Shown here: in pieces, positions 36,934 through 52,866 of the stretch | Layout: every line of letters starts with the position of its first letter | Position numbering within the stretch: the first letter of the stretch is position 1 | Assembly: GCA_964421815.1 (NCBI GenBank) | Contig: CAYQYT010000002.1 | Coordinates: forward strand, 33,396-97,395 | Reading direction: 5' to 3' | Length of the DNA stretch: 64,000 nucleotides | DNA from: an uncultured Eubacteriales bacterium | GTDB taxonomy: Bacteria > Bacillota > Clostridia > Oscillospirales > Acutalibacteraceae | Program-made: the position numbers and the translations under genes | The notes under the pieces: model-generated | Told to the model about the DNA's origin: nothing | The model's database searches: none | The model's input: only the letters and a program-made list of their open reading frames with translations

Positions 36934-37058
36934 ATATATGTATATTGTCTTATTGTGTTTAATAGGCGATTTATAAAATGGATTTGTATAATTATTACAT
37001 AATTCCTAATTGATTAAATTATTTTTAGGTAATTATATACTGATTTGGAGGCTTGTTT

Positions 37059-37580
37059 ATGGCACTTGAATTACCCAAATTAACAAAAAAAGAAAAACAA
37101 CCCGGTGAAAAATCTCAGCTCGCCTTGAAGGTTGGACAGTTTTTCGAGAAAAATCCGATTATGAAGATAATCATTCCGGTGATTCTTTTTCTGATTCTTG
37201 TTGCGGTTTTTCTATTGGTAATTTTCGGTGACGGTGTTTTGACCGATGACGAAAACGCGGACACAACGGCGAATTCCGCCGGAACTAACGAGGTTCAGGT
37301 CGTCCCGGGAAACAACATCATCAGAGATAAAGAAATTACTAAGCTGATTGACAATGATCCTCTTTCTCCCGATATTCTTGCCACCGCCACTTACACCGGC
37401 TCGGTTACGGGATCAAGCGGTTTGAAAACCGCACTTATTCAAATCGGTACATCCGGTGATACATTGGTTCTTTCGGCAGGTGAAACAATCGGGGATTCCG
37501 ATTGGGAACTTATAGAAATTTACTCCGACTATGTTGTTTTTAAAGCCGGTAACATAACTAAGAAATTGGAATTAGCCTAA
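37059..37580 (+). CDS. PilP-like bitopic pilus alignment protein
   Basis: Trimmed to the ATG at 37059 (GGAGG 7 nt upstream), giving 173 aa with an N-terminal TM. The C-terminal beta domain follows the PilP/GspC-HR pattern: LATATYTGSVTGSSGLKTALIQIGTSGDTLVLSAGETIGDSDWELIEIYSDYVVFKAGN. Confidence 0.5.
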   Translation: MALELPKLTKKEKQPGEKSQLALKVGQFFEKNPIMKIIIPVILFLILVAVFLLVIFGDGVLTDDENADTTANSAGTNEVQVVPGNNIIRDKEITKLIDNDPLSPDILATATYTGSVTGSSGLKTALIQIGTSGDTLVLSAGETIGDSDWELIEIYSDYVVFKAGNITKKLELA

Positions 37581-37627
37581 TACTTAAAGTAAACTATTTT
37601 ATTCTACATAAATAGGGGGATTTTCAG

Positions 37628-39424: not shown

Positions 39425-39449
39425 AAACTTTTCATTTGGAGTGACTGAA

Positions 39450-40538
39450 ATGGAATATATAAATCAACCGAGTATGTATCCCGTGAACCTTGAGCAATTG
39501 CTCAGGCTCACGGTTGAGAAAAAAGGCTCCGACCTTCATATCGTTGTAGGTATGCCTCCTTGCATTCGTATTGACGGCGACATCGTTAAGCAGGATTTTC
39601 CCCCTATGACTCCTCCGGATGTCGAGAATATGCTTATGCAAGTATTATCGGACAAACACAAAAGAGAATTGCACGATAATTTGGAACTTGATATTTCCTA
39701 TTCGGTCCCCAAATGTGCTCGTTTCAGAGGTAATATTATTGTTCAGCGCGGTACTCTCGCCGCGGTTTTCAGAGCAATTCCCTTTGAAATTCCCACTCTT
39801 GACAAATTAGGTTTACCTGCCGATGTAAGAAGACTTTGTTCTCTTCCCCGTGGACTTATACTTGTTACAGGCCCCACCGGTAGCGGCAAATCAACTACTC
39901 TTGCGGCAATGCTAAACCACATGAATATAAACTATGAATATAACATAGTTACCATTGAGGACCCCATTGAGTTCTTACATTCCCATAAACGTTCCATCGT
40001 CAGACAGCGTGAGTTGGGCGGAGATACACTCAGTTTTAACAATGCGTTGAGAACGGTTCTTCGTCACGACCCGGACGTTATTATGATCGGTGAAATGCGT
40101 GACCCGGAAAGTATCAGTATCGCTCTTACGGCGGCTGAAACAGGTCACCTTGTTCTATCAACATTACATACACAGACTGCTCCGCTGACAATTTCCCGTA
40201 TTATCGACTCTTTCCCCAGCGAACAGCAGAACCAAATCAGAAGCCAGCTTTCCAATACTTTGCGTGCTGTTATTTCCCAACAACTAATGCCTCGTTTAGG
40301 CGGCGGCCGTGTTTCTGCGGTTGAGTATATGGTGGATACTCCCGCTATCAGAAATATGATTCGTGAGGGTAAGGACCATCAGCTTTACAGCACCATGCAG
40401 ACCGCTCAAAAAGAGGGCATGCAGACAATGGACCAGGCTCTTCTTAAACTGCTCAGAGAACAGAAAATCAGCAGAGAATCTGTTTTGGAAAACTGTGTTG
40501 AAAGAGCGGAAATTCTCAGACAAATGCAGATGTATTGA
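39450..40538 (+). CDS. pilT: type IV pilus retraction ATPase PilT
   Basis: Trimmed to the ATG at 39450, giving 362 aa. There is no N-terminal GspE-N domain. Motifs are Walker A GPTGSGKST, an Asp box, a His box and the PilT signature AIRNMIREGK. Confidence 0.85.
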   Translation: MEYINQPSMYPVNLEQLLRLTVEKKGSDLHIVVGMPPCIRIDGDIVKQDFPPMTPPDVENMLMQVLSDKHKRELHDNLELDISYSVPKCARFRGNIIVQRGTLAAVFRAIPFEIPTLDKLGLPADVRRLCSLPRGLILVTGPTGSGKSTTLAAMLNHMNINYEYNIVTIEDPIEFLHSHKRSIVRQRELGGDTLSFNNALRTVLRHDPDVIMIGEMRDPESISIALTAAETGHLVLSTLHTQTAPLTISRIIDSFPSEQQNQIRSQLSNTLRAVISQQLMPRLGGGRVSAVEYMVDTPAIRNMIREGKDHQLYSTMQTAQKEGMQTMDQALLKLLREQKISRESVLENCVERAEILRQMQMY

Positions 40539-40571
40539 TAAATATTTTTATTATCCAAAGGGGGCAGACTA

Positions 40572-41771
40572 TTGGATTTTACGTATGAAGCCTTAAACCG
40601 ACAAGGTCAGTCAATAACCGGTAAAGTTGTTGCAAACAATACCAGCGAAGCCTATGAAAAACTTCGTGAGGCGGGTGTTGTTGTTACAAAACTTACCGAA
40701 GTAAAAGGCAAGAATGTCAAAAAAACAAAAAGTAAAAAAGTCGGACTTGCAGATATGTCCATGTTTGCGCGTCAGCTTTCTGCGATGATTAGTGCGGGTA
40801 TTCCCGTTACTCAGGCCATGCAGACTCTTGTCGGTCAGACTACCAACCAGACCCTTGCAAATGCTATAAGTAATATTGCTGATGATGTTGAGGGCGGTAC
40901 AGCTCTTTCCGAAGCATTCCTTGCGCAAAGACCGGTATTTTCGGATCTTTTCTGTTCAATGATTGCTGCCGGTGAAATGGGCGGTATGCTTGACAAAACC
41001 TTGCTTGCCATGTCCAACCAGTTACATAAGGACAAACAGCTGAAAGACTCCGTTAAGTCTGCAACATCCTACCCCAAGATGGTTGGTTCCTTTGCTATTG
41101 TTGTTCTTTTTGCGATGCTTATTTTTATGGTTCCCACATTCCAAGGAATGACTACAACCGTTGAAAATCTGAACCCCATTACAGAGTTTGTTTATTTCCT
41201 GTCAGAGTCCTTGAGGGCATATTGGTACATAATTTTCCCCGGAATCGGTGTTTTCATTTTCGTTTTGATTAAGGTAATAAAATCACCTCCGGTTCAGCAT
41301 TTTTGGGAAAATCACAAAATGCAGTGCCCCGTTGTCGGCGAACTGATTACAAAGACAATTCTCGCCCGTTTCTGCCGTATTTTTGCAACACTCATCGGCG
41401 GCGGTGTTACAGCCGTTAAAGCCCTTGAAACTGCGGGCCCCACTTCCGGTTCAAAACTTATTGAGGCGGCAGTTACGAAGGCAATTGAAGAAGTTGAAAA
41501 CGGTGGTACAATCCACGAATCCCTGGATGAATCGGGACTTTTCCCTCCCATGCTTATCGGTATGATTGCAATCGGTGAGGAAGCCGGTACACTTCCCACC
41601 ATGCTTGACAAGGTTGCGGAGTTTTATGAGGAAGACGTTGATACCCTTGCAAAGAGTTTGGGTTCAACTCTCGAACCCATTATGCTTGTAGGTCTTGCAA
41701 GTATCGTTGGTTTCTTGATTATCGCCCTCTATCTTCCTATTTTCCAGGCAACAACAGCAACTCCGACATAA
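40572..41771 (+). CDS. pilC: type IV pilus platform protein PilC (GspF family)
   Basis: 399 aa, with a TTG start preceded by AAGGGGG. It has two T2SS-F repeats and three TM helices. Confidence 0.85.
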   Translation: MDFTYEALNRQGQSITGKVVANNTSEAYEKLREAGVVVTKLTEVKGKNVKKTKSKKVGLADMSMFARQLSAMISAGIPVTQAMQTLVGQTTNQTLANAISNIADDVEGGTALSEAFLAQRPVFSDLFCSMIAAGEMGGMLDKTLLAMSNQLHKDKQLKDSVKSATSYPKMVGSFAIVVLFAMLIFMVPTFQGMTTTVENLNPITEFVYFLSESLRAYWYIIFPGIGVFIFVLIKVIKSPPVQHFWENHKMQCPVVGELITKTILARFCRIFATLIGGGVTAVKALETAGPTSGSKLIEAAVTKAIEEVENGGTIHESLDESGLFPPMLIGMIAIGEEAGTLPTMLDKVAEFYEEDVDTLAKSLGSTLEPIMLVGLASIVGFLIIALYLPIFQATTATPT

Positions 41772-41814
41772 ACTGTATTAAAAATCAAAAATCCTTCGCA
41801 AAGGAGCAGATATA

Positions 41815-42786
41815 ATGGCTAAAGTGAACAGTGCTATCGGCATTGAATACAACTCACACGAAATTAAAGCCACAGAGCTTTATAAACATTCGGACGGCAG
41901 ATTTGAGATTCTTGCCGTTGGAAAAGCAACCTTAGAGGATTCTGTTATCGGAAACGGTATGATTTTGGATAGTGTCCTTTTCGGTAGCGCACTTAATGAT
42001 ATTATCGCAAACGGAAAATTCAATAAAAATGCTCCGGTTGTAGTTGGTGTTAATAACGAAAATGTTATTATGCGTTACGCAACATTTCCCAAGGTTCCCA
42101 GCGATAAATTAAGAGGTGTTGTTACTATGCAGGCACAGGAATTTATTCCTGTTCCCATTTCGGAGTTGGGGTTGGATTTCGTTGTTATTGATGAAACAAC
42201 CGATGATGATGACCAACCTGCATTGAATGTTATGCTTGTGGGTGCAAGGAATATTATGCTGCAAAACCTCATACAGAACTTTGAAGAAGTAAAGCTGGAG
42301 GTTGTGGATATTGACAGTTCGTTCCTGGCTTGGTGTCGAGTGGCTATTGATGAAATCAATCCGGAGGAAGTTGTCGGATTTATTTGCTTAACCGATGATG
42401 TTCTCGACTTCGTAGCCATTGCGGATAAAGAAATTAAAATGGTTCGTTCAATCAATATTCCCGACCGTGCAACAATTGAGGTAAAGAAAGCCTTCAACGA
42501 TCCCGACGAAGTGGTTAGTACGGAAATGGATATAATTGTTGATTTACTGCAATCCGAACTTTCCTCATCAATAAATTATTTCCAAATGCAAACGGGATAC
42601 GTTATGAATAAAGTTCTTTTCACAGCGGCTACCGCCTTGGAAAAAGAAATTGTGGAAAAACTTTCGGAAAAAAGCTATGTTCCTCTTGAAATACCGGAAT
42701 TTTATAAGGATTTTTCAAATGAAACGTTTGATGCAAGTGAATTTGCCGGATGCATCAGTCTTGCAAAGGCAGCATTGGAGGGATAA
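41815..42786 (+). CDS. pilM: type IV pilus assembly protein PilM (actin-like ATPase fold)
   Basis: 323 aa with RBS AAGGAG. It has a PilM-like N-terminus (IGIEYNSHEIKATEL) and sits directly before pilN with a TAATG overlap. Confidence 0.75.
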   Translation: MAKVNSAIGIEYNSHEIKATELYKHSDGRFEILAVGKATLEDSVIGNGMILDSVLFGSALNDIIANGKFNKNAPVVVGVNNENVIMRYATFPKVPSDKLRGVVTMQAQEFIPVPISELGLDFVVIDETTDDDDQPALNVMLVGARNIMLQNLIQNFEEVKLEVVDIDSSFLAWCRVAIDEINPEEVVGFICLTDDVLDFVAIADKEIKMVRSINIPDRATIEVKKAFNDPDEVVSTEMDIIVDLLQSELSSSINYFQMQTGYVMNKVLFTAATALEKEIVEKLSEKSYVPLEIPEFYKDFSNETFDASEFAGCISLAKAALEG

Positions 42787-43415
42787 TGGTGAAATACAAA
42801 GTTAGTTTGCTTCCCGAGCAAAACAGGAAGCGTTTAAACAATAAGAAAAAACTTGAAAAAATTAAAATCAATACCCTTATAACTTTGTTTGTATTGGCTC
42901 TGTTTGCCTTTGTTGTTATGGGCACAACGATTTATGCCAACGGACAGTTGAAAAAAGCAAAAGCGCTTGATAATGAAAGTGCCCAGGAGGTTGCTCAGCT
43001 TGAGCAGTTCCGTGAAATTAACGCAAATCTTCAAAGCAAGGTTCAGCTTATTGAAAGTATTCAGGTTAATGAGCCCATGCTTGTGAACTTTATAGCAAGT
43101 GTGTCAAATTTACGTTCACCCGGTGTTTCAATACAGGGTTTTGAATGTACGGATTGGAAAGTATCCCGTGTTTGTAATTTAACAGGTACCTGCGACAATC
43201 GTAAACAGTATCTGGCTTTTGAAGAATCTGTGGGAAAAATGGAAGGAGTTTCGGGAGTTACCTGCGTTTCCTATGTTCAGGGTACTGCGGAAACCGATGG
43301 TGTTGCTTTTGCAATTTCGGTAACTTGCTCCGGCGGTTCCGCACCCGTGGAAACAGCACCCCCTGAAACAGCCGCAGCAACAACGGACGAAGCAACCGAT
43401 GTTGCAGTAGAATAA
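42786..43415 (+). CDS. pilN: PilN-like bitopic protein
   Basis: Trimmed to the ATG at 42786. MVKYKVSLLPEQNRKRL carries the conserved LLP motif, followed by a TM and a coiled coil. The C-terminus is an A/T/E-rich extension. Confidence 0.7.
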   Translation: MVKYKVSLLPEQNRKRLNNKKKLEKIKINTLITLFVLALFAFVVMGTTIYANGQLKKAKALDNESAQEVAQLEQFREINANLQSKVQLIESIQVNEPMLVNFIASVSNLRSPGVSIQGFECTDWKVSRVCNLTGTCDNRKQYLAFEESVGKMEGVSGVTCVSYVQGTAETDGVAFAISVTCSGGSAPVETAPPETAAATTDEATDVAVE

Positions 43416-43430
43416 GGAGAGGAGACGTTT

Positions 43431-44006
43431 ATGAAAAATAAAAATATTAACTTAAAAGATATAAAAAACTCTCCTTACACCTCGGCGGTTGCATTGATTT
43501 TGGTAGTTATTTTGGTTATAGCTGCCATAGTGTATTCCGTATTAGGAATATTTGAAACAAAGAAAGAAATTGTTGAAGCACGAGAGTCTTATCAGAATAA
43601 TTTAAAAGAGATTGCAATTCTTGAAGAACTCCGAGCACAGAGTGAAAAAGCCGAGGCACAGTTGGAGATTTATAAGGGAATTCTTCCCGATGAACTGGGA
43701 GATGTATATATACTTCAAGAAGATGTTATCAGAACATGCAAAGATTTTTCCCTTGATGTTTCTGCAATAGAGGTATCCCAGGTTCAGGAACAGACACAGG
43801 AAACAAAATTTGTTTTAAGTGTTCAAGGCACCTTTGAAAATATATATAACTATATGGCTTATGTTTCATCTCTTGAACAGATGCACAGATTTGATTCTCT
43901 TGTTTTAACAAAAACAGAGGACGACAAATATAATGCAGATATCACTCTTACGATACTCTCGCAAAACGGTGCGGAAGGCATTGTAGCTGTTGCGGCTGAG
44001 GGTTAA
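43431..44006 (+). CDS. pilO: PilO-like bitopic protein
   Basis: 191 aa with a TM, a coiled coil and a ferredoxin-like C-domain (FVLSVQGTFENIYNYMAYVSSLEQMHRFDSLVL). Confidence 0.7.
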   Translation: MKNKNINLKDIKNSPYTSAVALILVVILVIAAIVYSVLGIFETKKEIVEARESYQNNLKEIAILEELRAQSEKAEAQLEIYKGILPDELGDVYILQEDVIRTCKDFSLDVSAIEVSQVQEQTQETKFVLSVQGTFENIYNYMAYVSSLEQMHRFDSLVLTKTEDDKYNADITLTILSQNGAEGIVAVAAEG

Positions 44007-44121
44007 AATACTTTAGGTTTACCAAAAATATAAGAATTGCGGGCAGATAGTTTATTACAATAACGATTAACTCGCAGTTCTTGTTGGCTTTTAATTATGC
44101 GTTTGGAAAGGGAAGTTTGTT

Positions 44122-45822
44122 TTGGCAGATATGAATATAGTAATTCCCGGTACTGTGGGTTATTTTCTTGTAAAAAACGGCACGATTACCGAGGAACAGT
44201 TGCTTAATGCATTGGAAATACAAAAGGAAAGCAAAGCATTATTGGGAACAATTCTTGTAAATGAGGGGTATTGCACGGAAAGGGATGTTGCCGCTGCCCT
44301 TGCTACTAAAACCGGTTGCAAACTTGTTTCCATTGAAGAAGTAGGAATAAATTTTGCAATTGCAAATATAATTCCTCCGGATATTGTTGCACGAAAAGGT
44401 GTTCTTCCCCTTTATCAGGAAGAAAAGAGACTTTTCGTTGTTATGCGTAACCCAAATGATATTGTTACAAGAGATAACCTTTCCATCATTACAGGCGGAA
44501 TGGAAATCGTTCCCCTTGTATCAACGGATACGGAACTTAATGTTGCCATTGATACAATATTAAATAACGCAAACAGCATAGATGCATATGATGAAGATGA
44601 GATATCCGAAGATGAGCTTGATTCTCTTGAACAGCTTGCTGCGGATGAAAAACCCGCAGTTCAGCTTGTTAACCAGGTTATTACAAATGCGGTTAAGTCC
44701 GGCGCATCCGATATTCATATTGAGCCAATGGAAAAAAACATGCGTGTTCGTCTTCGTATAGACGGCGTTTTGCATGAGGTTCTCCAACAACCGATCAAAC
44801 TTCATGCTGCGGTTTCATCCCGTGTTAAAGTTATCGGCGGTATGGACATTGCGGAAAGACGTGTTCCCCAGGACGGACGTACAACCGTTAAGGTTGATGA
44901 CAGAACATTTGATATTCGTATTGCGGTTCTTCCCTCCGTATATGGCGAAAAAATTGTTATGCGTCTTTTGGAACGCGGTGCAAAGTCAGTTCAGCTTAAA
45001 GATATCAAATTTTCTCCCGCACAGTCGGAGAGGTTTATGAAAACAATATTTATGCCCTACGGTTTCCTGCTTGTTACAGGTCCTACCGGTAGCGGTAAGT
45101 CAACAACACTTTACGCAACTCTTTCAGAGGTTAGCGACATTACAAAGCACGTTATTACTCTTGAAGACCCTGTTGAGCGCAGAATGCCCGGCCTTTGCCA
45201 GGTTCAGATGAATACCCGTGCGGGTATGACCTTTGCGGCGGCTCTTCGTTCCGTTCTCCGTGCCGACCCGGATATCGTCATGGTCGGTGAAATTCGTGAC
45301 GGTGAAACTGCGAAAATCGCTGTTGAATCCGCTCTTACAGGACACATGGTTTTCTCCACACTCCATACAAACGACGCTCCCAGTGCGGTTACCCGTCTTG
45401 ATGAAATGGGTGTTGAGCCCTTCCTTACGGCTTCATCCCTTGTTGGTGTTTTGGCACAGCGTCTTGTTCGTGTGCTTTGCCCCAGATGTAAGGAAGCGGT
45501 TGATGTAACGTACCGTGAACTTCGTAACAGTATGGAAGATTTCCCTATTCCCGAGGGAAAAACACTTGACGATACAGTAAGAATTTATCAACCCAAGGGC
45601 TGCATTGCTTGCAGTAACACCGGCTATAAAGGACGTCAAGGTGTATTTGAATTCTTACAGATTACTCCGGAAATGAAAACCCTGATTCTTCAGCGTTCCG
45701 GTGTTCAGGAAATCAAGGATTTGGCAATGGCACAGGGTATGCAGACCTTGCGCCAGGAAGGTATCGCAAAAATTCTTGAAGGTACAACCTCGGTAGAAGA
45801 AGTTCTTCGTGTTATCGTATAA
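44122..45822 (+). CDS. pilB: type IV pilus extension ATPase PilB (GspE family)
   Basis: 566 aa. It has an N-terminal GspE-N/MshEN-like domain, Walker A GPTGSGKST and the tetracysteine motif CPRC...CIAC. The start could be TTG 44122 or ATG 44131. Confidence 0.9.
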   Translation: MADMNIVIPGTVGYFLVKNGTITEEQLLNALEIQKESKALLGTILVNEGYCTERDVAAALATKTGCKLVSIEEVGINFAIANIIPPDIVARKGVLPLYQEEKRLFVVMRNPNDIVTRDNLSIITGGMEIVPLVSTDTELNVAIDTILNNANSIDAYDEDEISEDELDSLEQLAADEKPAVQLVNQVITNAVKSGASDIHIEPMEKNMRVRLRIDGVLHEVLQQPIKLHAAVSSRVKVIGGMDIAERRVPQDGRTTVKVDDRTFDIRIAVLPSVYGEKIVMRLLERGAKSVQLKDIKFSPAQSERFMKTIFMPYGFLLVTGPTGSGKSTTLYATLSEVSDITKHVITLEDPVERRMPGLCQVQMNTRAGMTFAAALRSVLRADPDIVMVGEIRDGETAKIAVESALTGHMVFSTLHTNDAPSAVTRLDEMGVEPFLTASSLVGVLAQRLVRVLCPRCKEAVDVTYRELRNSMEDFPIPEGKTLDDTVRIYQPKGCIACSNTGYKGRQGVFEFLQITPEMKTLILQRSGVQEIKDLAMAQGMQTLRQEGIAKILEGTTSVEEVLRVIV

Positions 45823-45907: not shown

Positions 45908-47800
45908 ATGAAAATCTTAACAAAGAGGAACGGTATTGCGCTTGTTGCAGTATTGACGATTTTGCTTGTTTTGACATTGCTGCTTCCTGTAATGTTTAAC
46001 ATGTCCGAGCACGCTATCTCCGGTGCTGCCTCCAGAGAAGATAAGCAAATAGCCTCATATTACGCTCGTTCAATGGTTGAAATGACGGTTTCAGCCTTTG
46101 AAGATCTTTACGACGCTGCCGAAGAAGATAAAGAAACAAATACGGATTCAACATATCTTCAGATAATGAACTCATTTAAGACTATCCCGGACGGCAGTAC
46201 CAGTAACACAATGAAGGCTCAGACTATTTATATCTACAAAAAAAATGAAGATGCTCCGGATATATCCAATGTCACAGAACAGGCTCAGATAGACGAAGCA
46301 AACGAGTATATCCGGTATTTCACAAGTAAAGACACTTCCGGAGATTACGTTTATTTAGGCGAAGCTGATTGCAATATTATTTATGAAGAAGCAAAAGAGT
46401 ATTACGAAACTAAATATAATTCGGAAAAAAAAGCCTTTGAGACTACCTTGATGACGGATCCTAACGCGGCAACAATTTACGAGAATTATATTGAATCGGC
46501 AAGGGACGGCAACATTCAAGGGGAAACAGACACAAGATATTCCAAATTGGAACAGGAAAAAGTTACATTTGTTGCAAGGGCAACTGTTAACGGTGAAGTC
46601 GGCGAAAGACGCTGTGTTATGTATCTTCCTTCAAAGCCTGCGGAAAAGAACTGGATTGCTCCCGCGAACATGGAAAGCAATCAGATTTTCCCCGATACCG
46701 AAAACGCAACAAGTATAACAAACCTGGATGTACCCGACGATTTCGTTGGGGACATAAAAGCGTTTAACAAACAGTCTGTTTTCATATTTTCATGCGTAGG
46801 CAATATGGTAATTTCAAAGGAAAATATGAAAATCAAGGATAAAGACGGCAATTATGTGGATTATAATAAATTTATTGAAGATTACAACAATAATCCCCTG
46901 CATACAGCCGACAGTTTGAAATTGATCAATAATTCCGCAGATTTCTCTCTGGGTCTGCACCCAATTACGACAACCCTTAAACCCTCAAACGATCCCTCTT
47001 TTTCCTGTGTAAAAACAAACAATATGAGATCTTGGGCAATTTCCGCTCAGCGCGATAATTTCGTTGCCTACACCGCAACCAATGCAATTGAAGTTGATAT
47101 GCCAATCAATCTTCTTATTAACCCCTGCCGTACTATGAGAATAGGTGACGGTATTTCCGCAAACCAGTCCCTCTACAAGATTATGTGCTTTCAGGCGCCG
47201 GACATAGTTTTTAAAGAAAGTGTAAACAGTTTTATGTCCCTTTACCGTAAAGAGGGTCTTGCAGCAGGTTTAAGTAACTATAATGCCTACAGAATGAGCA
47301 GCATTATTCTTTCTGCACCGCAGAATACTCCCTACAGTTATCTGAACGAAGAACGGGGCAAGGTTGTTAAAGCGGGTAAGGTTTACTTTTTAGAGGATGC
47401 ATATATTTGGCTCGTACCCTACGGGGAGGATGGTTCGGACTACAAAACCCAGACCGTATATTACAAAGGTAAAGATATTCTTCTTTACAAATTCGCAAAT
47501 GCGGGAGATGTTTTCCTCTTTAATAACGAGGTCAAAGAAACAGATGATACAAAATACGCCGGGTTTTCAATGACGGGTTACTTTATGGATGTTCTTTATA
47601 ACAAAGGTGACGCCAAAACGACCGCTCCTTGGTGGGATTTTGTTACGCGTATGCGCGGAGCAATCTTTGACAAAGCAATGGAAACCTTCAGAGAGCCCAC
47701 TTATGTTGAAGAAGATTTAAAATGGGTTGGAAACATAAAAAACGGAACAGTTGGCGCGACTCCCGTCGTTGATGATTTCTATGTTGTATGGGAGAGTTAA
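45908..47800 (+). CDS. PilX-N-domain-like large pilus-associated protein
   Basis: 630 aa. MKILTKRNGIALVAVLTILLVLTLLLPVMF matches the PilX N-terminal pattern (G-[IV]-A-L-[IV]-x-x-L, with no Glu5). The rest was not recognisable. Confidence 0.55.
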   Translation: MKILTKRNGIALVAVLTILLVLTLLLPVMFNMSEHAISGAASREDKQIASYYARSMVEMTVSAFEDLYDAAEEDKETNTDSTYLQIMNSFKTIPDGSTSNTMKAQTIYIYKKNEDAPDISNVTEQAQIDEANEYIRYFTSKDTSGDYVYLGEADCNIIYEEAKEYYETKYNSEKKAFETTLMTDPNAATIYENYIESARDGNIQGETDTRYSKLEQEKVTFVARATVNGEVGERRCVMYLPSKPAEKNWIAPANMESNQIFPDTENATSITNLDVPDDFVGDIKAFNKQSVFIFSCVGNMVISKENMKIKDKDGNYVDYNKFIEDYNNNPLHTADSLKLINNSADFSLGLHPITTTLKPSNDPSFSCVKTNNMRSWAISAQRDNFVAYTATNAIEVDMPINLLINPCRTMRIGDGISANQSLYKIMCFQAPDIVFKESVNSFMSLYRKEGLAAGLSNYNAYRMSSIILSAPQNTPYSYLNEERGKVVKAGKVYFLEDAYIWLVPYGEDGSDYKTQTVYYKGKDILLYKFANAGDVFLFNNEVKETDDTKYAGFSMTGYFMDVLYNKGDAKTTAPWWDFVTRMRGAIFDKAMETFREPTYVEEDLKWVGNIKNGTVGATPVVDDFYVVWES

Positions 47801-47841: not shown

Positions 47842-50800
47842 ATGAAAAGGCGTAATTTCCAAAAGAGCGGCGCAAGGAAACGTTTTTTTAACAAACTTGG
47901 TATGACCTATGTTGAGCTCCTTTGTGCTCTTTCATTGCTCAGTCTTATTGTGGTAATGTTCACCCCAATGCTTTTATCCTCCTATGAAAGAATTTATTCC
48001 GCGGGGGAGAGAGAGGCTAATACTTACAGCAAAAAAGAGAGTGTCGAAACCGTGCTTTCTTCCCGTGTATCAAAGTTTTCACTTGATAGTCTGGATATGC
48101 AGATGTCCTTCAATAGCCTTGTTCAGTCTATAGAGGTCAGCGGAAAAAAAGCAATCGGCGGACTTGTTGATGGTTTTGAAACCCTTTTCGGTTATGAACG
48201 AACTACGGTTGAACTTATTTCACCCTCCACGGTGTATGATGACGATACATACCACGAAATTATTTTGCAGACATCGGGTATGGATTACGATACGGTTACA
48301 TTCGGTGAGGTGGAAAATTATGACAAAACTACCGGAGAAGTAACGAATGTGGACGCTTGGAAGGGAAAAATCCATTTACAGGTTATTATGCCCAATAAAA
48401 AATACACCGGAACCGGTGCTACTCTCCAGGAAACCGTTTACAGTGATTCAGCCTCCCAGTATTTGAATGTGTCCACAACCGGTTCGGAACCCTCAACAAC
48501 CGATCCGGGAGATCTTTCCATGGGTACCGACGGCAGAATAACTCTGAGAATAGGCAGATCGGACCTTGATTTCACCCGGTCCCCTGTTCAAATAAGGGTG
48601 TACTATGTAAACAAAAGAGGCAAGATGCGAATTATATCGGAATATTTGCATATTGAACCTGCTACCATTCTTTTTGCGGGTGAAACTGACTCCAATGCAG
48701 ATTACTACACTTCCGCGGGAGTTCAGTCGGAAACGGGTACCGACGGAAAAACCGTTTACAGCCTTAATGCAAAGGGCAGAGTAATGCGTACGGACAACAG
48801 CCCGTATCTTAATCAGCCCAGTAGATACAACAAAGGTTCTTATCAGTTGACCATGGGTCGTCCGGGTACCAACAGCAAACTCGATATTGACATCCGTTCA
48901 ATCCGCTGGATTGACAATGACAATGACGCTTCTCTGGACCCCTATTATGTTATGACAGGTACAAACGGCGCCATATACAGAATGTATAACTTTAAGAGCC
49001 ACGATAGTGATGTTTACAAAGCGGCAGTGGGCTCGGAACTTATGAACAACAATTCTCAGGCTCAGGCGTACCTGACAAAAGGCGCGGGCGCCGATACCCT
49101 TGACAAAGCGTTTAAACTCGAAACAGGTGAAAGAGTTTATTCATCACTCTGGGGCGGAGATTTCTCCCATGCCTTTGAATATTCCACGGGACAAGATAAA
49201 AGTTCCGCTTACGGTCCCTCTGTAAACTATCCCGGTGGTGACAAAACATGGATTACCTCCGAAGATGAGCTTGGTGTAAAGGGTGCTGCGAAATACAATA
49301 TTATGAGTCCCGTAGCCCAGTTTGTTTATTATGCAAACTATGAGGAATGTGACTTCGAGAGAAAGTTTAAAAAGACGCGTCCCATTTCATATATATTAAC
49401 CGAATCCGGATATGCTCTCAGACTGTTCGGAAGCGTTAACGGCGATAATGGCAGAGAATACAACGGAATGCAGGCTCTGTATGATCCGAACACTGCGGGT
49501 AGTTACGGTTACAGAATATTCGGAAAAGAATCCTATAAAAGGACCTGGGCAAATGAAGTATATGCATTCTACGGAAACAATGCAAAAAAGTATATAACTG
49601 ACAATGAACATGTTTTTTCCTCAATCAGTATCGCGGCGCTCGCCTCATATAATATAACAGCTTTTGACAACTATAGTAATAGCACCGGAAAACTTACTAA
49701 CAACACAGAAAATGTCAGATTGAATTACTTCCAGCGTTCGAGTAATCAGGGTGATAACGATGGTATAGGAACGCCTCGTTCCAACGCAAAGAGCCCGGCG
49801 TATGACGGAAATCTGGGCTATCTGAGGTATGAGTCGTTCGACGTAAATATTACCGACGCTATATATATTCCTTCTACAGCCGGTGGAACAAGTAAAGGGT
49901 CCATGTTCTATGTGGGCAATGTTCATGCATATTCGCATTTGAACCAAATTGACAAAATAAATAATAATTGTGTATGGGACTACGCGCTGTCATACAAAAA
50001 AGATGAATCTGATGGAAAATATTACAGAAGCAACGGTGAAAACAGTACATTCTTTTTATCAGGTGCTCTTACGGAATACCTTGTTGCAAGTAACGCTGAC
50101 GGAACAGGAACATATATTGCAAAATTCCATAATACCGGAGCACCGCATGAAGAAGGCGCTACTAAAACCAAACCTAGTGAAAATTATTATACTCCTGACA
50201 GAATTTTAGGTGAAGATGCAAGAGCGAAACAGCTTTATGCAATTACACATACTTCAGCTCAAACTGCCGCTACAAAAGCAACAAAAAATGAGTTCTTCTT
50301 CCCCACAAGAGGCACTACGGGCGAGTGGGAAACAATTTACATGGACGATGTTTCCTTTACGTTCGGCTATTCTTCAAACAGGGAAAAGGTTTATTCAAAA
50401 ATAACCTACGACGGTAATACGGAAAAAATTCGTTCCTTTGAGGAGTACTATTGGATTTCCCACTACGGAACCGCTAACCGCGTTGCAAACAGGAATCTTT
50501 GCGGTATTACCGGAATAACCGGCGGCTGCCTTGACGGTTGGGCGGGTAACAACGGAAATGATACGGGATACGACTATCTCAACAGTTATAATAACGATTA
50601 TTATAATGTCTGGTTCCCCGGAGAAATGTATAACCTCAACAAAATTGCTTCAAAGAACGGTGTTACCGTTGCGGTGGGCTATGCCGTTTCCGGTTCAACA
50701 TATCAGTGGATGAATCAGGATACCGCAAATTATGCCGACTGCAGTTCCACTGCTCTGGGCGGTATTTTCAATGACGGAGTTCTTGCCGCCATGATTGAGG

Positions 50801-51639
50801 GGAAGGATACCTCCCTGAACAATCTTCTTTATTTTAAAGATAATGAAACAATGGACAGGGATTTCTTATCCAAAAACAAGGCAAACTATTCACAGTTCAA
50901 GGACGCGGATAAAGGTTTAGCACAGCAGTACGGAAACCACTCCCGTGACAGCGTTCAGTTTACTGCGGTTGACCTTTTGGTTGAACAGGAAAGAACGGGC
51001 AACAACTCGGTAAACCTTGAATATTATGCGTATTACGGCGATAACAAGGGCAGGGTATTCAGATCCCTTGTTGCAAGAGGTACCGGCACAACCGATACAT
51101 CTGTGGATGTGGGAGGTAACAACTCCGATACGGATCTTGTTGTTACTTCCAACGTCAATACCGTTCCGTTTATCAAGGATCTGACGTATTCCGGTGCAGA
51201 GAATACTTCGGCGGGTTCCATGGAGGAAATTAAAATTGGCGGTGAATCCCTGAGTAAATATTTCAAGGAAATCAATACCATTGACGCAACCAATAATACT
51301 ATTATTATCAGCGGCAAAAAGGCGGATACCGTATCCTACGAATACTTCGTTGTCGGCGTAAAAAATTCCGACGGTAGTTGGAACTGGCGTGCCGTTCAAA
51401 ACGGTACATTTAACGATGTAATAAATGACGCGGCGGTTATCGGAGGCTATTATTACATTGTGAGTAACGGTTGGATGGCAGGTGTTTCTCTTGATGCTTT
51501 CAGCGATGTTAGTGTTACAAAAATCCAAGAAGCATCATACAACGGCAAGCACGATGTTTCCCAAAATAAAAACGACCTTTTATGGGTTGATTTGGGTAGC
51601 AGAAAATTTTATGCCATAGCCGGTCACGCAACAAACTAA
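47842..51639 (+). CDS. giant (1265-aa) protein with a class III (prepilin-type) signal: modular minor pilin or tip adhesin candidate
   Basis: MKRRNFQKSGARKRFFNKLG/MTYVELLCALSLLSLIVVMF has Gly at -1, Glu at +5 and a hydrophobic alpha-1 helix. About 1200 aa follow, rich in N, Y, G, T and S, with no motif I could recognise. Confidence 0.6.
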   Translation: MKRRNFQKSGARKRFFNKLGMTYVELLCALSLLSLIVVMFTPMLLSSYERIYSAGEREANTYSKKESVETVLSSRVSKFSLDSLDMQMSFNSLVQSIEVSGKKAIGGLVDGFETLFGYERTTVELISPSTVYDDDTYHEIILQTSGMDYDTVTFGEVENYDKTTGEVTNVDAWKGKIHLQVIMPNKKYTGTGATLQETVYSDSASQYLNVSTTGSEPSTTDPGDLSMGTDGRITLRIGRSDLDFTRSPVQIRVYYVNKRGKMRIISEYLHIEPATILFAGETDSNADYYTSAGVQSETGTDGKTVYSLNAKGRVMRTDNSPYLNQPSRYNKGSYQLTMGRPGTNSKLDIDIRSIRWIDNDNDASLDPYYVMTGTNGAIYRMYNFKSHDSDVYKAAVGSELMNNNSQAQAYLTKGAGADTLDKAFKLETGERVYSSLWGGDFSHAFEYSTGQDKSSAYGPSVNYPGGDKTWITSEDELGVKGAAKYNIMSPVAQFVYYANYEECDFERKFKKTRPISYILTESGYALRLFGSVNGDNGREYNGMQALYDPNTAGSYGYRIFGKESYKRTWANEVYAFYGNNAKKYITDNEHVFSSISIAALASYNITAFDNYSNSTGKLTNNTENVRLNYFQRSSNQGDNDGIGTPRSNAKSPAYDGNLGYLRYESFDVNITDAIYIPSTAGGTSKGSMFYVGNVHAYSHLNQIDKINNNCVWDYALSYKKDESDGKYYRSNGENSTFFLSGALTEYLVASNADGTGTYIAKFHNTGAPHEEGATKTKPSENYYTPDRILGEDARAKQLYAITHTSAQTAATKATKNEFFFPTRGTTGEWETIYMDDVSFTFGYSSNREKVYSKITYDGNTEKIRSFEEYYWISHYGTANRVANRNLCGITGITGGCLDGWAGNNGNDTGYDYLNSYNNDYYNVWFPGEMYNLNKIASKNGVTVAVGYAVSGSTYQWMNQDTANYADCSSTALGGIFNDGVLAAMIEGKDTSLNNLLYFKDNETMDRDFLSKNKANYSQFKDADKGLAQQYGNHSRDSVQFTAVDLLVEQERTGNNSVNLEYYAYYGDNKGRVFRSLVARGTGTTDTSVDVGGNNSDTDLVVTSNVNTVPFIKDLTYSGAENTSAGSMEEIKIGGESLSKYFKEINTIDATNNTIIISGKKADTVSYEYFVVGVKNSDGSWNWRAVQNGTFNDVINDAAVIGGYYYIVSNGWMAGVSLDAFSDVSVTKIQEASYNGKHDVSQNKNDLLWVDLGSRKFYAIAGHATN

Positions 51640-51654: not shown

Positions 51655-52866
51655 ATGTTCAAATTTTTGACATCAAAAAAGGGCTTCACCCTTGTGGAAT
51701 TGATGATAATATTGGTACTCCTTTCCCTTGGTTTTGTTGCTCTTGCAAATATGTTCCGTGCAACTATCAAGTCTTTCGACAAAACCGAGGAACGATACAG
51801 AAAACAGGAATCCGTAAAACTTGTTGCGGAACTTCTCCAAAAGGGTTCCACCGGTGTTGCCGCTTCAAAGACGGCGGATATATTTAACGATATATCCGTT
51901 GTCCCCACCGGCAACAAAGTGGATAAATCCTATTCCTACCTTTTTGCCGAGGAGTATAATGTTTGTTCGAAATGTGACAAAACATGGAATGAAACAAGCG
52001 GATGCCCGGATTCTTGTCCAGGTGCTCAAAAAAAACTGGATGGTTATTATATAAGCGTTCTTGACAAAGGAAAACCCCGTGCTTCTGCCCGGCGCCTTTC
52101 GCAAGAACCCATTTACTTAAGCATAGTTCCTTTAAGAGATGAGGCTAATAAAATTTCCTGCGGTGTTAAAGTCAGCATTGTTGCGGTTGAAGAAGAATTT
52201 GATGCCAACAATAAAGCCTTGTGTTTTAAAGGCTATGACGAGAACACAAACCCCAATCCCATTAGCATTGTTGATGATTATATTTTCTACGGACTTGATG
52301 TTGCATACCATTTTCCGAATATGATAGAATACGGCGGCAATGCCAGGGTAAATTTGGGTGCCGACGGGGAAATTGCAGAAGCTACGGCATACAACGCGGA
52401 CGGCTCTTTGAAAAGCGATTCTGTAAGTGCATCTGACAACGGCGGAATTGTTTTAAGGGTTTATGCGGATTCCATAATTTCCGGTGACAATATGGAAAAC
52501 GAAGTTTCCGCTCCCTCACTTTGCTTTATAGCCACGGCGTCCTACGGTCACGATTCCGGTGAGGTTGGTTTGCTCTGCGAATTCCGTGATAAATGCTTGC
52601 TTACAAATCCGTTAGGCACGGCATTTGTTAAAGCGTATTACAAGTTATCGCCTCCCGTTGCTGACTTCATTGCCGAAAGAGAACCTCTTAAAGCAACAGT
52701 AAGATTGGCACTTAAACCCTTGATTATTGTGGCAGTTAATGCGCTTGACGAGGATGTTGCCCGACAGAGTTTGCCTTTGTTTATGGCATTTATGTGTTGC
52801 GATGCAGGTGCTACGGCAATGCTTATTAAAATCACAACAAAGAAGAAAAGACAAAAATCCGAATAA
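51655..52866 (+). CDS. type IV pilin-like protein (canonical prepilin signal) fused to a CFI-box-type C-terminal domain with a TM anchor
   Basis: 403 aa. MFKFLTSKKG/FTLVELMIILVLLSLGFVAL is a canonical prepilin signal. A Cys-rich insert reads CSKCDKTWNETSGCPDSCPG. The C-terminus is LCFIATASYGHDSGEVGLLCEFRDKCLLTNPLGTAFVKAYYKLSPPVADFIAE..., then a hydrophobic helix and TTKKKRQKSE. Confidence 0.7.
   Translation: MFKFLTSKKGFTLVELMIILVLLSLGFVALANMFRATIKSFDKTEERYRKQESVKLVAELLQKGSTGVAASKTADIFNDISVVPTGNKVDKSYSYLFAEEYNVCSKCDKTWNETSGCPDSCPGAQKKLDGYYISVLDKGKPRASARRLSQEPIYLSIVPLRDEANKISCGVKVSIVAVEEEFDANNKALCFKGYDENTNPNPISIVDDYIFYGLDVAYHFPNMIEYGGNARVNLGADGEIAEATAYNADGSLKSDSVSASDNGGIVLRVYADSIISGDNMENEVSAPSLCFIATASYGHDSGEVGLLCEFRDKCLLTNPLGTAFVKAYYKLSPPVADFIAEREPLKATVRLALKPLIIVAVNALDEDVARQSLPLFMAFMCCDAGATAMLIKITTKKKRQKSE

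What the first reader, a model, noticed from the sequence alone, without database searches (positions are those of the whole stretch)
51655..52866. A canonical type IV prepilin fused to a CFI-box-type C-terminal membrane anchor: a pilin tethered at both ends
The N-terminus (KKG/FTLVELMIILV) is textbook prepilin. The last roughly 130 aa match, from my memory of the family, the CFI-box-CTERM pattern. That pattern is CFIATA(A/S)YG, about 8 residues, (L)xEFRDxxLLTNxxGxxFVxxYYxxSPPxAxFI, and then hydrophobic segments. Here it ends with a TM helix and the basic tail TTKKKRQKSE.

A protein anchored by an N-terminal pilin helix and a C-terminal TM helix cannot be extruded into a fibre unless the C-terminus is removed. 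This implies an unrecognised sorting or processing step, analogous to other x-CTERM/sortase-like systems, or a stationary stator-like role at the pilus base. A Cys-rich insert (CSKCDKTWNETSGCPDSCPG) adds a possible metal or disulfide module. I am not aware of this fusion being described.
Basis: partly seen in the sequence, partly recalled or inferred. Interest (0 to 1): 0.65.

Follow-up and report, generated by a model that had tools for sequence, protein, structure and literature searches.

The report
Type IV pilin with membrane leash
The last gene of a type IV pilus operon in an uncultured gut Clostridia lineage encodes a normal-looking pilus subunit permanently fused to a conserved C-terminal membrane anchor, so it should be unable to leave the cell membrane unless cut, an arrangement not described for pilus subunits in the literature I could search.

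Summary
ORF 51655-52866 (+, 403 aa) has a canonical prepilin leader (Pfam N_methyl above threshold). It also has a full-length CFI-box-CTERM domain (NCBIfam NF041770, 83.7 bits against a cutoff of 40), followed by a hydrophobic helix and a KKKRQK tail.

It is not a one-off or an assembly artefact. At least 794 protein clusters and 52 species-level genomes, nearly all uncultured Acutalibacteraceae/Clostridia, carry the same architecture. The gene is always the last one of a pilT-C-M-N-O-B operon, after a ~630-aa GspK-like and a ~1265-aa giant prepilin.

G-1, E+5, the CFI Cys and the FRD/YY/SPP residues are invariant. The CFI-box is the most conserved part of the protein, and spacer lengths are fixed. 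The Cys-rich insert is present in only 9 of 42 members.

The CFI-box itself is a very widespread C-terminal module (13,441 clusters) of Sec-exported surface proteins. It has a confident helical-bundle model, no relative in the PDB and no literature I could find.

The predicted topology is N-in, C-in, with the pilin head and CFI-box outside. Whether the anchor is kept (basal anchor, terminator or latch) or removed is unresolved. No processing enzyme is co-localized, and the S24-like peptidase lies in a separate transcription unit.

Verdict: a new variant of the modular minor pilin.

The parts
51655..52866 (+). Whole gene: prepilin-type minor pilin fused to a CFI-box-CTERM anchor (403 aa plus stop)
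   Evidence: ORF. NF041770 and N_methyl hits. More than 120 full-length homologs. 52 species-level loci.
51655..51684 (+). Leader peptide, aa 1-10 (MFKFLTSKKG), ending in the invariant G-1
   Evidence: G-1 is present in 42 of 42 members. Pfam N_methyl covers aa 7-30.
51685..51843 (+). Alpha1 helix of the mature pilin, aa 11-63 (F+1, E+5, G+16). The hydrophobic N-terminal half is the N-terminal membrane segment.
   Evidence: E+5 and G+16 are present in 42 of 42 members and F/Y at +1 in 42 of 42. AF2 predicts a helix at 13-63. Hydropathy. Profile match to geopilin alpha1.
51844..52482 (+). Variable globular beta-sheet pilin head, aa 64-276
   Evidence: AF2 strands at 74-269 with pLDDT 80-91 over much of it. 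Mean pairwise identity is 46%, and the length varies by about 80 aa.
51964..52017 (+). Cys-rich insert, aa 104-121 (CxxC...CxxxC); an accessory feature, not a family hallmark
   Evidence: Cys positions. All four Cys are present in only 9 of 42 members. Absent in 6 of 24 members of A1.
52483..52521 (+). Linker, aa 277-289: variable in sequence, fixed in length
   Evidence: pLDDT below 50. 45% identity with no invariant column. The distance from the last beta-strand motif to the Cys is 24 aa in 33 of 33 members.
52522..52746 (+). CFI-box helical domain, aa 290-364 (CFIATASYG ... FRD ... YY..SPP ... R..LKP)
   Evidence: NF041770 scores 83.7 bits. 71% mean identity with 26 of 75 columns invariant. 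C290, C308, R311, D312, Y328, Y329, S332 and P355 are present in 42 of 42 members. The domain-only AF2 model has pLDDT 90 and four helices. No PDB relative.
52771..52833 (+). Predicted C-terminal transmembrane helix, aa 373-393
   Evidence: Kyte-Doolittle 19-mer maximum of 1.75. Conserved in character in 38 of 38 complete members, with maxima of 1.6-2.6. AF2 predicts a helix.
52834..52863 (+). Basic cytoplasmic tail, aa 394-403 (TTKKKRQKSE)
   Evidence: 4-8 K/R in the last 14 residues in 38 of 38 complete members.
47842..51639 (+). Giant prepilin-like protein (1265 aa, leader ...KLG|MTYVEL); a conserved operon partner
   Evidence: Leader motif. Present in 49 of 52 related loci. No Pfam domains.
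45908..47800 (+). 630-aa pseudopilin-like protein without E+5 (weak GspK/PilV N-terminal hits); a conserved operon partner
   Evidence: Present in 49 of 52 related loci.
39441..45822 (+). Pilus machine genes: PilT (39441-40538), PilC (40572-41771), PilM (41815-42786), PilN-like (42750-43415), PilO (43431-44006), PilB with an MshEN-type c-di-GMP domain (44122-45822)
   Evidence: The same gene order is seen in L001 and L003.
37053..39424 (+). Probable operon start: a 175-aa bitopic protein and a 598-aa LysM + STN/Secretin_N-like protein with no detectable secretin barrel
   Evidence: A terminator-like hairpin lies upstream at 36511-36545.

Best explanation
The gene encodes an assembly-competent minor type IV pilin that stays leashed to the cytoplasmic membrane.

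[quoted passage not shown] The gene always sits as the terminal gene of a pilT-C-M-N-O-B operon, next to two other pilin-like genes.

Inferred:
- After prepilin-peptidase cleavage, the protein sits N-in and C-in, with the head and CFI-box on the outer face of the membrane.
- Its alpha1 can dock into the base of the fibre or priming stem like any pilin.
- The leash consists of about 20 linker residues, a bundle of about 3 nm and about 8 residues. It lets the head rise only a few nanometres, equal to a few subunit steps at about 1 nm per subunit.
- The protein therefore acts at the pilus base. Either it is a terminal subunit that stops growth and anchors the fibre to the membrane, or it is a latch that holds the primed minor-pilin complex (630-aa cap, 1265-aa giant pilin) at the machine.
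- PilT-driven retraction would simply return it to the membrane.
For: - Domain calls: 3, 4 and 62 (24 of 24 members hit NF041770).
- Topology: only two TM-like segments, with basic residues at both ends. TM helix plus a K/R tail is present in 38 of 38 complete members.
- Tandem CFI-box proteins show box, TM helix, basic loop, then a new signal-peptide-like helix, so the helix after the box behaves as a true stop-transfer anchor.
- Invariant E+5, G-1 and G+16, with 65-67% identity in alpha1, argue that the pilin module really engages in filament-type contacts.
- The CFI-box is the most conserved region, and spacer lengths are fixed while the head varies by about 80 aa. The geometry of the leash is therefore under selection.
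- No conserved neighbouring gene could serve as a dedicated processing enzyme, in 52 loci and about 965 kb.
- The trio of pilin-like genes is conserved in 49 of 52 loci.
- AF2 predicts a pilin fold plus a helical bundle plus a terminal helix.
Against: - There is no experimental evidence on processing, localisation or presence in pili.
- The near-universal invariance of the CFI residues (C, FRD, YY, SPP) across thousands of unrelated surface proteins looks more like a recognition or reaction site than a passive stalk, which favours a processing step. So does the fact that the leading Cys is unpaired in 56% of them.
- Minor pilins encoded together at an operon end are normally tip or priming subunits. 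A tip subunit that stays leashed would block extension beyond a stub.
- No terminator or anchor pilin is known in any type IV pilus system.
- The major pilin and the prepilin peptidase are not in the window, so even the type of fibre made is unknown.
- The TM helix of the window's own protein is only moderately hydrophobic and contains D383, which is G in most relatives.
Confidence: 0.4

Rival explanations
1. Dual-processed pilin. The CFI-box-CTERM is a sorting or processing domain, comparable in logic to LPXTG, PEP-CTERM, PGF-CTERM or the T9SS C-terminal domain. The C-terminal anchor holds the pilin in the membrane only until an unidentified enzyme, or the domain itself acting through its invariant leading Cys, cuts at or near L289|C290. 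The released conventional minor pilin (aa 11 to about 289) then joins the tip or priming complex with the 630-aa and 1265-aa proteins.
For: - The CFI-box is extremely conserved across 13,441 clusters on unrelated passengers, with C, F, A, T, A, G, R, D, YY, SPP and P at 94-100%.
- Conservation starts exactly at the Cys, after a Gly/Ser/Pro-rich linker, and in 56% of domains this is the only Cys.
- In the pilin family, the TM helix and tail keep only their character, with no invariant column, as in classical sorting signals.
- The gene's position among tip-type minor pilins fits this reading.
- The '-CTERM' name reflects the curators' view of it as a C-terminal signal-like region. This is my recollection and is unverified.
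Against: - No candidate enzyme is conserved next to the gene in 52 loci. No second CFI-box protein occurs in about 965 kb of flanking Acutalibacteraceae DNA or in the window. Single-substrate sorting systems usually have the enzyme adjacent; that rests on established knowledge of exosortase and archaeosortase systems.
- The conserved motif lies about 83 residues upstream of the TM helix, not directly against it as in known tripartite signals.
- A subclass of CFI-box proteins has no TM helix at all.
- The domain is a confidently folded four-helix bundle rather than a short motif.
- No literature or proteomic evidence of cleavage was found.
Confidence: 0.3
2. Non-polymerising, pilin-like stationary component. 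The protein never enters a fibre. It is a bitopic or two-anchor part of the assembly platform (stator or alignment element), comparable in role to archaeal FlaF/FlaG or to PilN/PilO. The CFI-box contacts other machine parts or the cell wall.
For: - Both ends are predicted to be in the membrane.
- The CFI-box and spacer geometry are strictly conserved while the head is variable.
- The operon also encodes unusual envelope parts (a LysM/Secretin_N protein and a 175-aa bitopic protein), suggesting a lineage-specific machine architecture.
Against: - The invariant G-1 cleavage site, F/Y+1 and E+5 are hallmarks of processed subunits that polymerise. Known stationary pilin-like proteins such as FlaF/FlaG do not need them (established knowledge).
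- The variable head with indels and optional Cys-rich inserts looks like an exposed, diversifying surface rather than a conserved machine interface.
Confidence: 0.15
3. Covalent anchoring. [quoted passage not shown] This would give a wall-anchored basal pilin analogous to the basal subunit of sortase pili.
For: - An invariant, usually unpaired, extracytoplasmic Cys is the first residue of the conserved domain, preceded by a flexible linker.
- Invariant Arg, Asp, Tyr and Ser residues in a 70-aa domain suggest chemistry rather than packing alone.
- The lineage is monoderm, and anchoring of type IV pili in the wall is an open question.
Against: - This reading is purely inferential, and no such chemistry is known for this domain.
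- The domain has no detectable similarity to Hint, sortase or other autoprocessing folds.
- In the pilin family, C308 is also invariant and may simply pair with C290.
Confidence: 0.1
4. Artefact: a mis-assembled, frameshifted or decaying gene that happens to join a pilin to a C-terminal anchor.
For: None beyond the unusual architecture.
Against: - The same uninterrupted architecture occurs in 52 species-level genomes and at least 794 clusters at 34-86% identity.
- Hallmark residues are invariant, spacer lengths are fixed, and the gene has a strong RBS.
Confidence: 0.01

Closest known systems
Modular type IV pilins (e.g. Streptococcus sanguinis PilB with a vWA module and PilC with a lectin module; Raynaud et al. 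2021, PMC8179133)
   Same: An N-terminal pilin module with a class III signal peptide is joined by a short linker to an unrelated C-terminal module. These are minor pilins of a monoderm type IVa pilus operon.
   Different: Known modules are soluble effector domains (adhesins, lectins, peptidases) displayed by the fibre. Here the module is a juxtamembrane helical domain plus a TM helix and a cytoplasmic basic tail, which should prevent display. The word 'transmembrane' does not occur in that paper.
CFI-box-CTERM domain proteins (NCBIfam NF041770)
   Same: The full-length domain match is well above cutoff and all hallmark residues are present. The domain is C-terminal, followed by a TM helix and a basic cluster, with the Cys about 106-118 residues from the C-terminus.
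   Different: Typical members have Sec-type signal peptides and surface-protein passengers (InlB B-repeat, RCC1, CBM_X2, LRR and others), mostly from Chloroflexota-type metagenomes. Here the passenger is a prepilin, exported and processed by the type IV pilus route. The pilin family also has an extra invariant Cys (C308) where generic members have Arg.
GspH/I/J/K and FimU-PilVWX minor (pseudo)pilin priming complexes
   Same: Several pilin-like genes are encoded together at the end of the machine operon. One of them is a large subunit lacking E+5 (630 aa, weak GspK hit). There are weak N-terminal hits to GspH, PilV and ComGF, and relatives are named 'PilW family protein' by NCBI.
   Different: No similarity is detectable beyond alpha1N, and all equivalog scores are far below cutoff. 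None of the known minor pilins carries a C-terminal membrane anchor.
Terminator or anchor subunits of other pilus classes (PapH of chaperone-usher pili; basal pilins of sortase pili such as SpaB); analogy only, from established knowledge
   Same: In the proposed role, a low-abundance subunit cannot be followed by further growth and ties the fibre to the envelope.
   Different: The proteins and assembly chemistry are unrelated. No such subunit is known in type IV pili, and the role is inferred here, not shown.
Archaeal FlaF/FlaG (pilin-like, membrane-anchored, stationary archaellum components); from established knowledge
   Same: A pilin-like N-terminal helix plus a beta-rich domain that stays at the base of a type IV filament machine.
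   Different: FlaF/FlaG have a single N-terminal anchor and no conserved prepilin cleavage or E+5 requirement. There is no CFI-box and no C-terminal TM helix.

Membership tests
Type IV pilin / prepilin (class III signal peptide) | Short basic leader ending in Gly, a hydrophobic +1 residue, Glu at +5, and about 20 hydrophobic residues | tested here: met
   MFKFLTSKKG|FTLVELMIILVLLSLGFVALA. Pfam N_methyl scores 24.5 against a gathering score of 21.2. G-1 and E+5 are present in 42 of 42 members. TIGR02532 is just below cutoff in the window protein (15.4 against 16.3) but is matched by 21 of 24 relatives.
Type IV pilin / prepilin (class III signal peptide) | Long N-terminal alpha-helix packed on a beta-sheet head | tested here: met
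   AF2 predicts a helix at 13-63 and strands at 74-269, with pLDDT 80-91 over most of the head. Foldseek gave no significant PDB match, so the fold class rests on the model's secondary-structure layout only.
Type IV pilin / prepilin (class III signal peptide) | Encoded with type IV pilus machinery | tested here: met
   PilT, PilC, PilM, PilN-like, PilO and PilB lie immediately upstream. The same order is seen in distant relatives.
Type IV pilin / prepilin (class III signal peptide) | Cleavage and N-methylation by a prepilin peptidase, and incorporation into a fibre | not testable with these tools
   No PilD and no major pilin are present in the window or within 10 kb in 57 loci, apart from one short pilin in L052. 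This needs experiment.
CFI-box-CTERM domain (NCBIfam NF041770) | HMM score above the curated cutoff over the full profile | tested here: met
   83.7 bits against a cutoff of 40, covering profile positions 1-69 of 69 at aa 290-357. 24 of 24 family members match.
CFI-box-CTERM domain (NCBIfam NF041770) | Hallmark residues: C-F-I-A-T-A-A/S-Y-G, FRD, LLTN, G, FV, YY, SPP, A, R..L.P | tested here: met
   All are present in the window protein and invariant in 42 of 42 family members. They match the consensus of 118 non-pilin carriers.
CFI-box-CTERM domain (NCBIfam NF041770) | C-terminal position, followed by a hydrophobic helix and a basic cluster | tested here: met
   The Cys is 114 aa from the C-terminus, within the generic range of about 100-118. 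The TM helix is at 373-393 and the tail is KKKRQK.
Sorting-signal systems of the x-CTERM / sortase-like kind | Signature motif immediately adjacent to the TM helix and basic tail | tested here: not met
   The conserved box starts 83-86 residues before the TM helix and is a folded four-helix domain.
Sorting-signal systems of the x-CTERM / sortase-like kind | A cognate processing enzyme that co-occurs with, or lies next to, the substrates | tested here: inconclusive
   No conserved neighbour was found in 52 pilin loci or in 3 generic CFI-box loci. A genome-wide co-occurrence analysis could not be run.
Sorting-signal systems of the x-CTERM / sortase-like kind | Removal of the C-terminal region in the mature protein | not testable with these tools
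   Requires proteomics or tagging.
Modular pilins (sensu Raynaud et al. 2021) | [quoted passage not shown] | tested here: met
   The pilin module spans aa 1-276, the linker aa 277-289 and the CFI-box-CTERM aa 290-403. The CFI-box occurs mostly on non-pilin proteins.
PilW / GspJ-type minor pilin (name given to relatives by NCBI) | Sequence or structure similarity of the globular part to PilW or GspJ | tested here: not met
   Only alpha1N-level hits were found. The best equivalog scores are 13-20 bits against cutoffs of 52-295. There is no PDB sequence or fold match beyond alpha1.

The most novel reading that the evidence does not exclude
This is the first dedicated basal subunit of a type IV pilus. 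The pilin polymerises through its alpha1 like any other subunit but cannot leave the envelope, because it is held by its CFI-box/TM anchor or because the CFI Cys transfers it onto lipid or cell wall. It would therefore terminate growth and anchor, or latch, the fibre in a monoderm envelope. The corollary is that the uncharacterised CFI-box, present in more than 13,000 protein clusters across bacteria, is a general envelope-anchoring or reaction module.
Probability: 0.3. Interest if true: 0.8.

Novelty: new variant of a known kind. Interest (0 to 1): 0.6.

Why it matters
Type IV pili are thought to be built only from subunits that leave the membrane. No terminator, anchor or leashed subunit is known for them, and reviews list as open questions how monoderm bacteria hold and guide these fibres through a thick wall.

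This conserved pilin is predicted to be fixed in the membrane at both ends. That forces one of two new things: a basal, terminating or latching role for a pilin, or a second, C-terminal maturation step in pilin biogenesis.

It also gives a functional handle on the CFI-box. This domain is very widespread, has a confident structure model and no homolog in the PDB, and I could find no published function for it. In this protein, the consequences of keeping or removing it are easy to read out, by piliation, fibre length and protein size.

Tried and rejected
- **Fold search, whole model.** Foldseek of the full AF2 model against the PDB gave nothing significant (best E 0.04, TM below 0.2). Weak pilin and archaellin rows are not usable.
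- **Fold search, CFI-box/TM model.** Foldseek of the high-confidence domain model against the PDB gave a best E of about 7, so there is no structural relative.
- **Sequence profile against the PDB.** A profile of the family matched only alpha1N of geopilins.
- **Literature.** Searches for 'CFI-box-CTERM', 'CFIATAAYG', 'CFI-box', 'CFIATA' and 'NF041770' returned no papers. Searches for pilins with C-terminal TM segments found only non-pilin S-layer-like or TafF proteins.
- **Co-localized processing enzyme.** Downstream genes differ between loci. An M28 peptidase lies downstream in L001/L002 only, and window-type downstream genes occur in about 15 of 52 loci.
- **S24-like peptidase at 34350.** It is a sub-threshold SipW-type hit, paired with a BY-kinase, and a terminator-like hairpin precedes the pilus operon. 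I rejected it as an operon member. A role in trans cannot be excluded.
- **Other CFI-box proteins nearby.** I found none in the window or in about 965 kb of related loci.
- **Neighbourhoods of three generic CFI-box genes.** They share no neighbour.
- **Cys-rich insert as a core metal or disulfide module.** Rejected as a family feature; all four Cys are present in only 9 of 42 members.
- **Lipobox-like reading of the residues before C290.** The -1 residue is L, M or F in the pilins and G or S in generic proteins, so this is not lipobox-like.
- **Major pilin or PilD in the window or loci.** None found, apart from one 194-aa pilin in L052.
Full report
**1. Observation**

It has an AGGAGA Shine-Dalgarno and starts 15 nt after the stop codon of the upstream gene.

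Both remembered identities hold when tested.
- The N-terminus (MFKFLTSKKG|FTLVELMIILV) passes Pfam N_methyl, at 24.5 bits against a gathering score of 21.2. It is marginally under TIGR02532 (15.4 against 16.3).
- The C-terminal region matches NCBIfam NF041770 CFI_box_CTERM over the full profile (aa 290-357, positions 1-69 of 69). The score is 83.7 bits against a cutoff of 40, E = 5.8e-24.
- Kyte-Doolittle analysis finds only two TM-like segments, aa 4-21 (alpha1N) and aa 372-393. The second is followed by TTKKKRQKSE.
- The CFI-box core (290-345) is not hydrophobic. There is one terminal TM helix, not several.
- The four-Cys insert is at aa 104-121.

**2. It is a real, conserved family**

A search of 5.8 billion proteins gave 794 clusters. 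The best 120 are all full-length homologs (43-86% identity, about 100% coverage, 380-480 aa), and most have N_methyl precomputed. The only source names are 'PilW family protein [Acutalibacteraceae]' and 'prepilin-type N-terminal cleavage/methylation domain-containing protein [Clostridia]'.

In species-representative genomes the family occurs in 52 loci. Nearly all are uncultured Acutalibacteraceae or Clostridia MAGs, many from ruminant guts, plus Clostridiales DTU089 at 34% identity. Three genomes have two copies. Acutalibacteraceae belong to Bacillota/Clostridia, which are monoderm by established knowledge.

All 41 members with complete N-termini have the CFI motif. 38 of 41 have the TM helix plus a K/R-rich tail, and the three exceptions run off contig ends. 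All 24 sampled members pass NF041770. An artefact is excluded.

**3. What is conserved**

Across 42 sequences, the following are invariant: G-1, E+5, G+16, C290, C308, R311, D312, Y328, Y329, S332 and P355. Position +1 is F or Y.

Mean pairwise identity by region:

| Region | Mean pairwise identity | Invariant columns |
|---|---|---|
| alpha1 | 65-67% | 13 of 63 |
| Globular head | 46% | 7 of 213 |
| Linker | 45% | 0 of 13 |
| CFI-box | 71% | 26 of 75 |
| TM helix | 35% | 0 of 21 |
| Tail | 32% | 0 of 10 |

Spacer lengths are fixed. The distance from the last beta-strand motif to the Cys is exactly 24 residues in 33 of 33 members. The distance from the Cys to the TM start is 83-86 residues in 38 of 39 members. 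The head, by contrast, varies by about 80 residues.

All four Cys of the insert are present in only 9 of 42 members. The insert is an accessory feature of a variable surface, not a hallmark.

**4. Context**

The gene closes a + strand operon:

| Coordinates (start) | Product |
|---|---|
| 37053 | 175-aa bitopic protein |
| 37628 | 598-aa LysM + STN/Secretin_N-like protein |
| 39441 | PilT |
| 40572 | PilC |
| 41815 | PilM |
| 42750 | PilN-like |
| 43431 | PilO |
| 44122 | PilB with an MshEN-type c-di-GMP domain |
| 45908 | 630-aa pseudopilin-like protein without E+5 (weak GspK/PilV hits) |
| 47842 | 1265-aa giant prepilin (…KLG\|MTYVEL) |
| 51655 | the target |

The order pilC-M-N-O-B, then a ~630-730 aa gene, a ~1265 aa gene and the target recurs in distant relatives. 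The trio of pilin-like genes is present in 49 of 52 loci.

Downstream genes are not conserved (about 15 of 52 loci). No short major pilin or PilD is found in the window, or within 10 kb in 57 loci, apart from one 194-aa pilin in L052.

The S24-like gene at 34350 is a sub-threshold SipW-type signal peptidase I hit, paired with a polysaccharide tyrosine autokinase. It is separated from the pilus operon by a 608-bp gap with a 15-bp-stem terminator-like hairpin at 36511-36545. It is not an operon member.

**5. What the CFI-box is**

A search with aa 285-403 against 1.84 billion cluster representatives gave 13,441 hits at E <= 1e-3 and 2,920 at E <= 1e-10. The domain lies near the C-terminus of proteins from 89 to 2,293 aa.

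Of the 148 best representatives, 18 have prepilin leaders and 3 more are N-truncated. These belong to this pilin family, apart from one 320-aa protein (P0227) whose head is unrelated, which makes it a second pilin architecture. The rest mostly have Sec-type signal peptides.

Their passengers are surface-type domains (InlB B-repeat, RCC1, CBM_X2, Big_5, LRR, cadherin-like), largely from Chloroflexota or Dehalococcoidia. NCBI names one of them 'CFI-box-CTERM domain-containing protein'.

The consensus from 118 non-pilin carriers is very strongly conserved: C100 F100 I97 A100 T99 A100 … L99 … F97 R100 D98 … G100 … V97 … Y100 Y99 … S100 P100 P91 … A99 … R98 … L99. P97. It is preceded by a Gly/Ser/Pro-rich linker. 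In 56% of these domains the leading Cys is the only Cys.

About two thirds continue into a TM helix and an Arg-rich tail. A subclass ends about 77 residues after the Cys, without a TM helix.

Proteins with two boxes are tandem units: box, TM helix, basic loop, a signal-peptide-like helix, then a second passenger. This is the topology expected if the helix after the box is a true stop-transfer anchor with the basic patch in the cytoplasm.

A domain-only AF2 model is confident (pLDDT 90). It has four helices followed by one long terminal helix and has no PDB relative. Pfam has no model for the domain, and the searchable literature has nothing on it.

**6. Structure of the whole protein**

AF2 gives mean pLDDT 69 for the full protein. 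It predicts the alpha1 helix at 13-63, a beta-sheet head at 74-269 (pLDDT 80-91 over much of it) and a disordered linker at 277-289. Helices at 291-364 form the CFI-box, and a terminal helix spans 373-402.

The predicted topology has a basic leader inside, alpha1N spanning the membrane, the head and CFI-box outside, then the TM helix and a basic tail inside. An even number of spans is self-consistent.

**7. Mechanism**

Shown: the anatomy, conservation, context and predicted topology.

Inferred from established type IV pilus knowledge (subunits add at the base, rise is about 1 nm per subunit, E+5 is needed for polymerising subunits):
- The pilin module is assembly-competent.
- The leash consists of about 20 linker residues, a bundle of about 3 nm and about 8 residues. 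It allows a displacement of only a few nanometres.

This leaves two possibilities. Either the protein acts at the base of the fibre as a terminator, anchor or latch of the primed minor-pilin complex, or the anchor is removed first.

I favour the permanent leash (0.4) for three reasons:
- The leash geometry is under strict selection.
- No enzyme is co-localized, although single-substrate sorting systems usually have one adjacent.
- No other CFI-box protein was seen in about 1 Mb of these genomes.

The processing model (0.3) is nearly as good. The universal invariance of polar CFI residues and of an unpaired leading Cys looks like a recognition or reaction site, and co-encoded minor pilins are normally tip subunits. 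A non-polymerising stator-like role (0.15) and covalent anchoring through the Cys (0.1) remain possible.

**8. Comparison with known systems, and novelty**

The closest known concept is the modular pilin (Raynaud et al. [quoted passage not shown] All of those carry soluble effector modules, and no transmembrane module is mentioned.

The monoderm type IV pilus review lists wall crossing and anchoring as open questions.

The protein meets the tested criteria for a prepilin, for CFI-box-CTERM and for a modular pilin. It does not meet the tested criteria for a classical tripartite sorting signal, because the motif is not adjacent to the TM helix. Nor does it meet those for PilW/GspJ, because there is no similarity beyond alpha1N.

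I rate it a new variant of a known kind, with interest 0.6. The architecture should surprise pilus specialists and forces a new step or role. The function is still inferred, and the lineage is uncultured.

Noticed in passing
window 37628-39424 (+) and 37053-37580 (+): The pilus operon of this presumably monoderm Clostridia lineage starts with two unusual genes. One is a 598-aa protein with LysM plus STN/Secretin_N-like N-domains, with no detectable secretin beta-barrel and about 330 C-terminal residues unassigned. The other is a 175-aa bitopic protein whose C-terminal half looked PilP-like to me but has no database hit. Together they could be a wall-spanning conduit or anchor for the pilus.
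   Followed up: partly
window 47842-51639 (+) and 45908-47800 (+): A 1265-aa protein with a prepilin leader and no recognisable domain, and a 630-aa pseudopilin-like protein lacking E+5, co-occur with the CFI-box pilin in 49 of 52 loci. They form a conserved three-gene minor-pilin cassette of unknown structure.
   Followed up: partly
window 44122-45822 (+): The extension ATPase PilB carries an N-terminal MshEN-type c-di-GMP-binding domain (NF053729, 56.5 bits against a cutoff of 38), which suggests c-di-GMP control of this pilus.
   Followed up: no
proteins P0134, P0139, P0140, P0141, P0250: Some large proteins contain two CFI-boxes. Each internal box is followed by a TM helix, a basic loop and a signal-peptide-like helix that starts a second passenger. 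These are tandem 'surface protein + anchor' units in one ORF, arising either from gene fusions or from lost stop codons.
   Followed up: partly
proteins such as P0155, P0167, P0191, P0214: A subclass of CFI-box proteins ends about 77 residues after the Cys and has no TM helix or basic tail. The box can therefore exist without the membrane anchor.
   Followed up: no
protein P0227: A 320-aa protein has a prepilin leader and a CFI-box/TM/tail, but its smaller globular part is unrelated. It is either a second, possibly independent, pilin + CFI-box fusion or a very divergent member.
   Followed up: partly
L052 11134-11775 (+): Only one of the 57 related loci has a short (194-aa) classical pilin gene directly downstream of the CFI-box pilin. 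Elsewhere the major pilin must be encoded far from the operon.
   Followed up: no
window 25533-31226 (+): A 1897-aa ORF (TTG start) has no Pfam or NCBIfam hit at all. It lies upstream of a dockerin-bearing 394-aa protein and a 361-aa protein with no hits.
   Followed up: no
window 13684-18711 (+) and 31333-32517 (+): Two proteins carry type I dockerin domains, and the larger also has Big_2, Big_3 and BspA-type LRR. This suggests a cellulosome-like surface system in this organism.
   Followed up: no
window 34350-36445 (+): A small SipW/archaeal-type signal peptidase I-like gene (below all cutoffs) is paired with a Wzz-domain BY-tyrosine kinase. The pair is followed by a strong terminator-like hairpin at 36511-36545.
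   Followed up: partly
window 52801-52803 (aa D383): The window's protein has Asp in the middle of the predicted C-terminal TM helix, where 28 of 42 relatives have Gly. This makes its anchor less hydrophobic than the family norm.
   Followed up: no
L057-L060: In Chloroflexota-type CFI-box proteins, the TM helix and the cytoplasmic tail (…RRRGRGPEYT) are nearly identical between unrelated proteins. The pilin family keeps only the character of these segments. This suggests the tail is recognised on the cytoplasmic side in those lineages.
   Followed up: no
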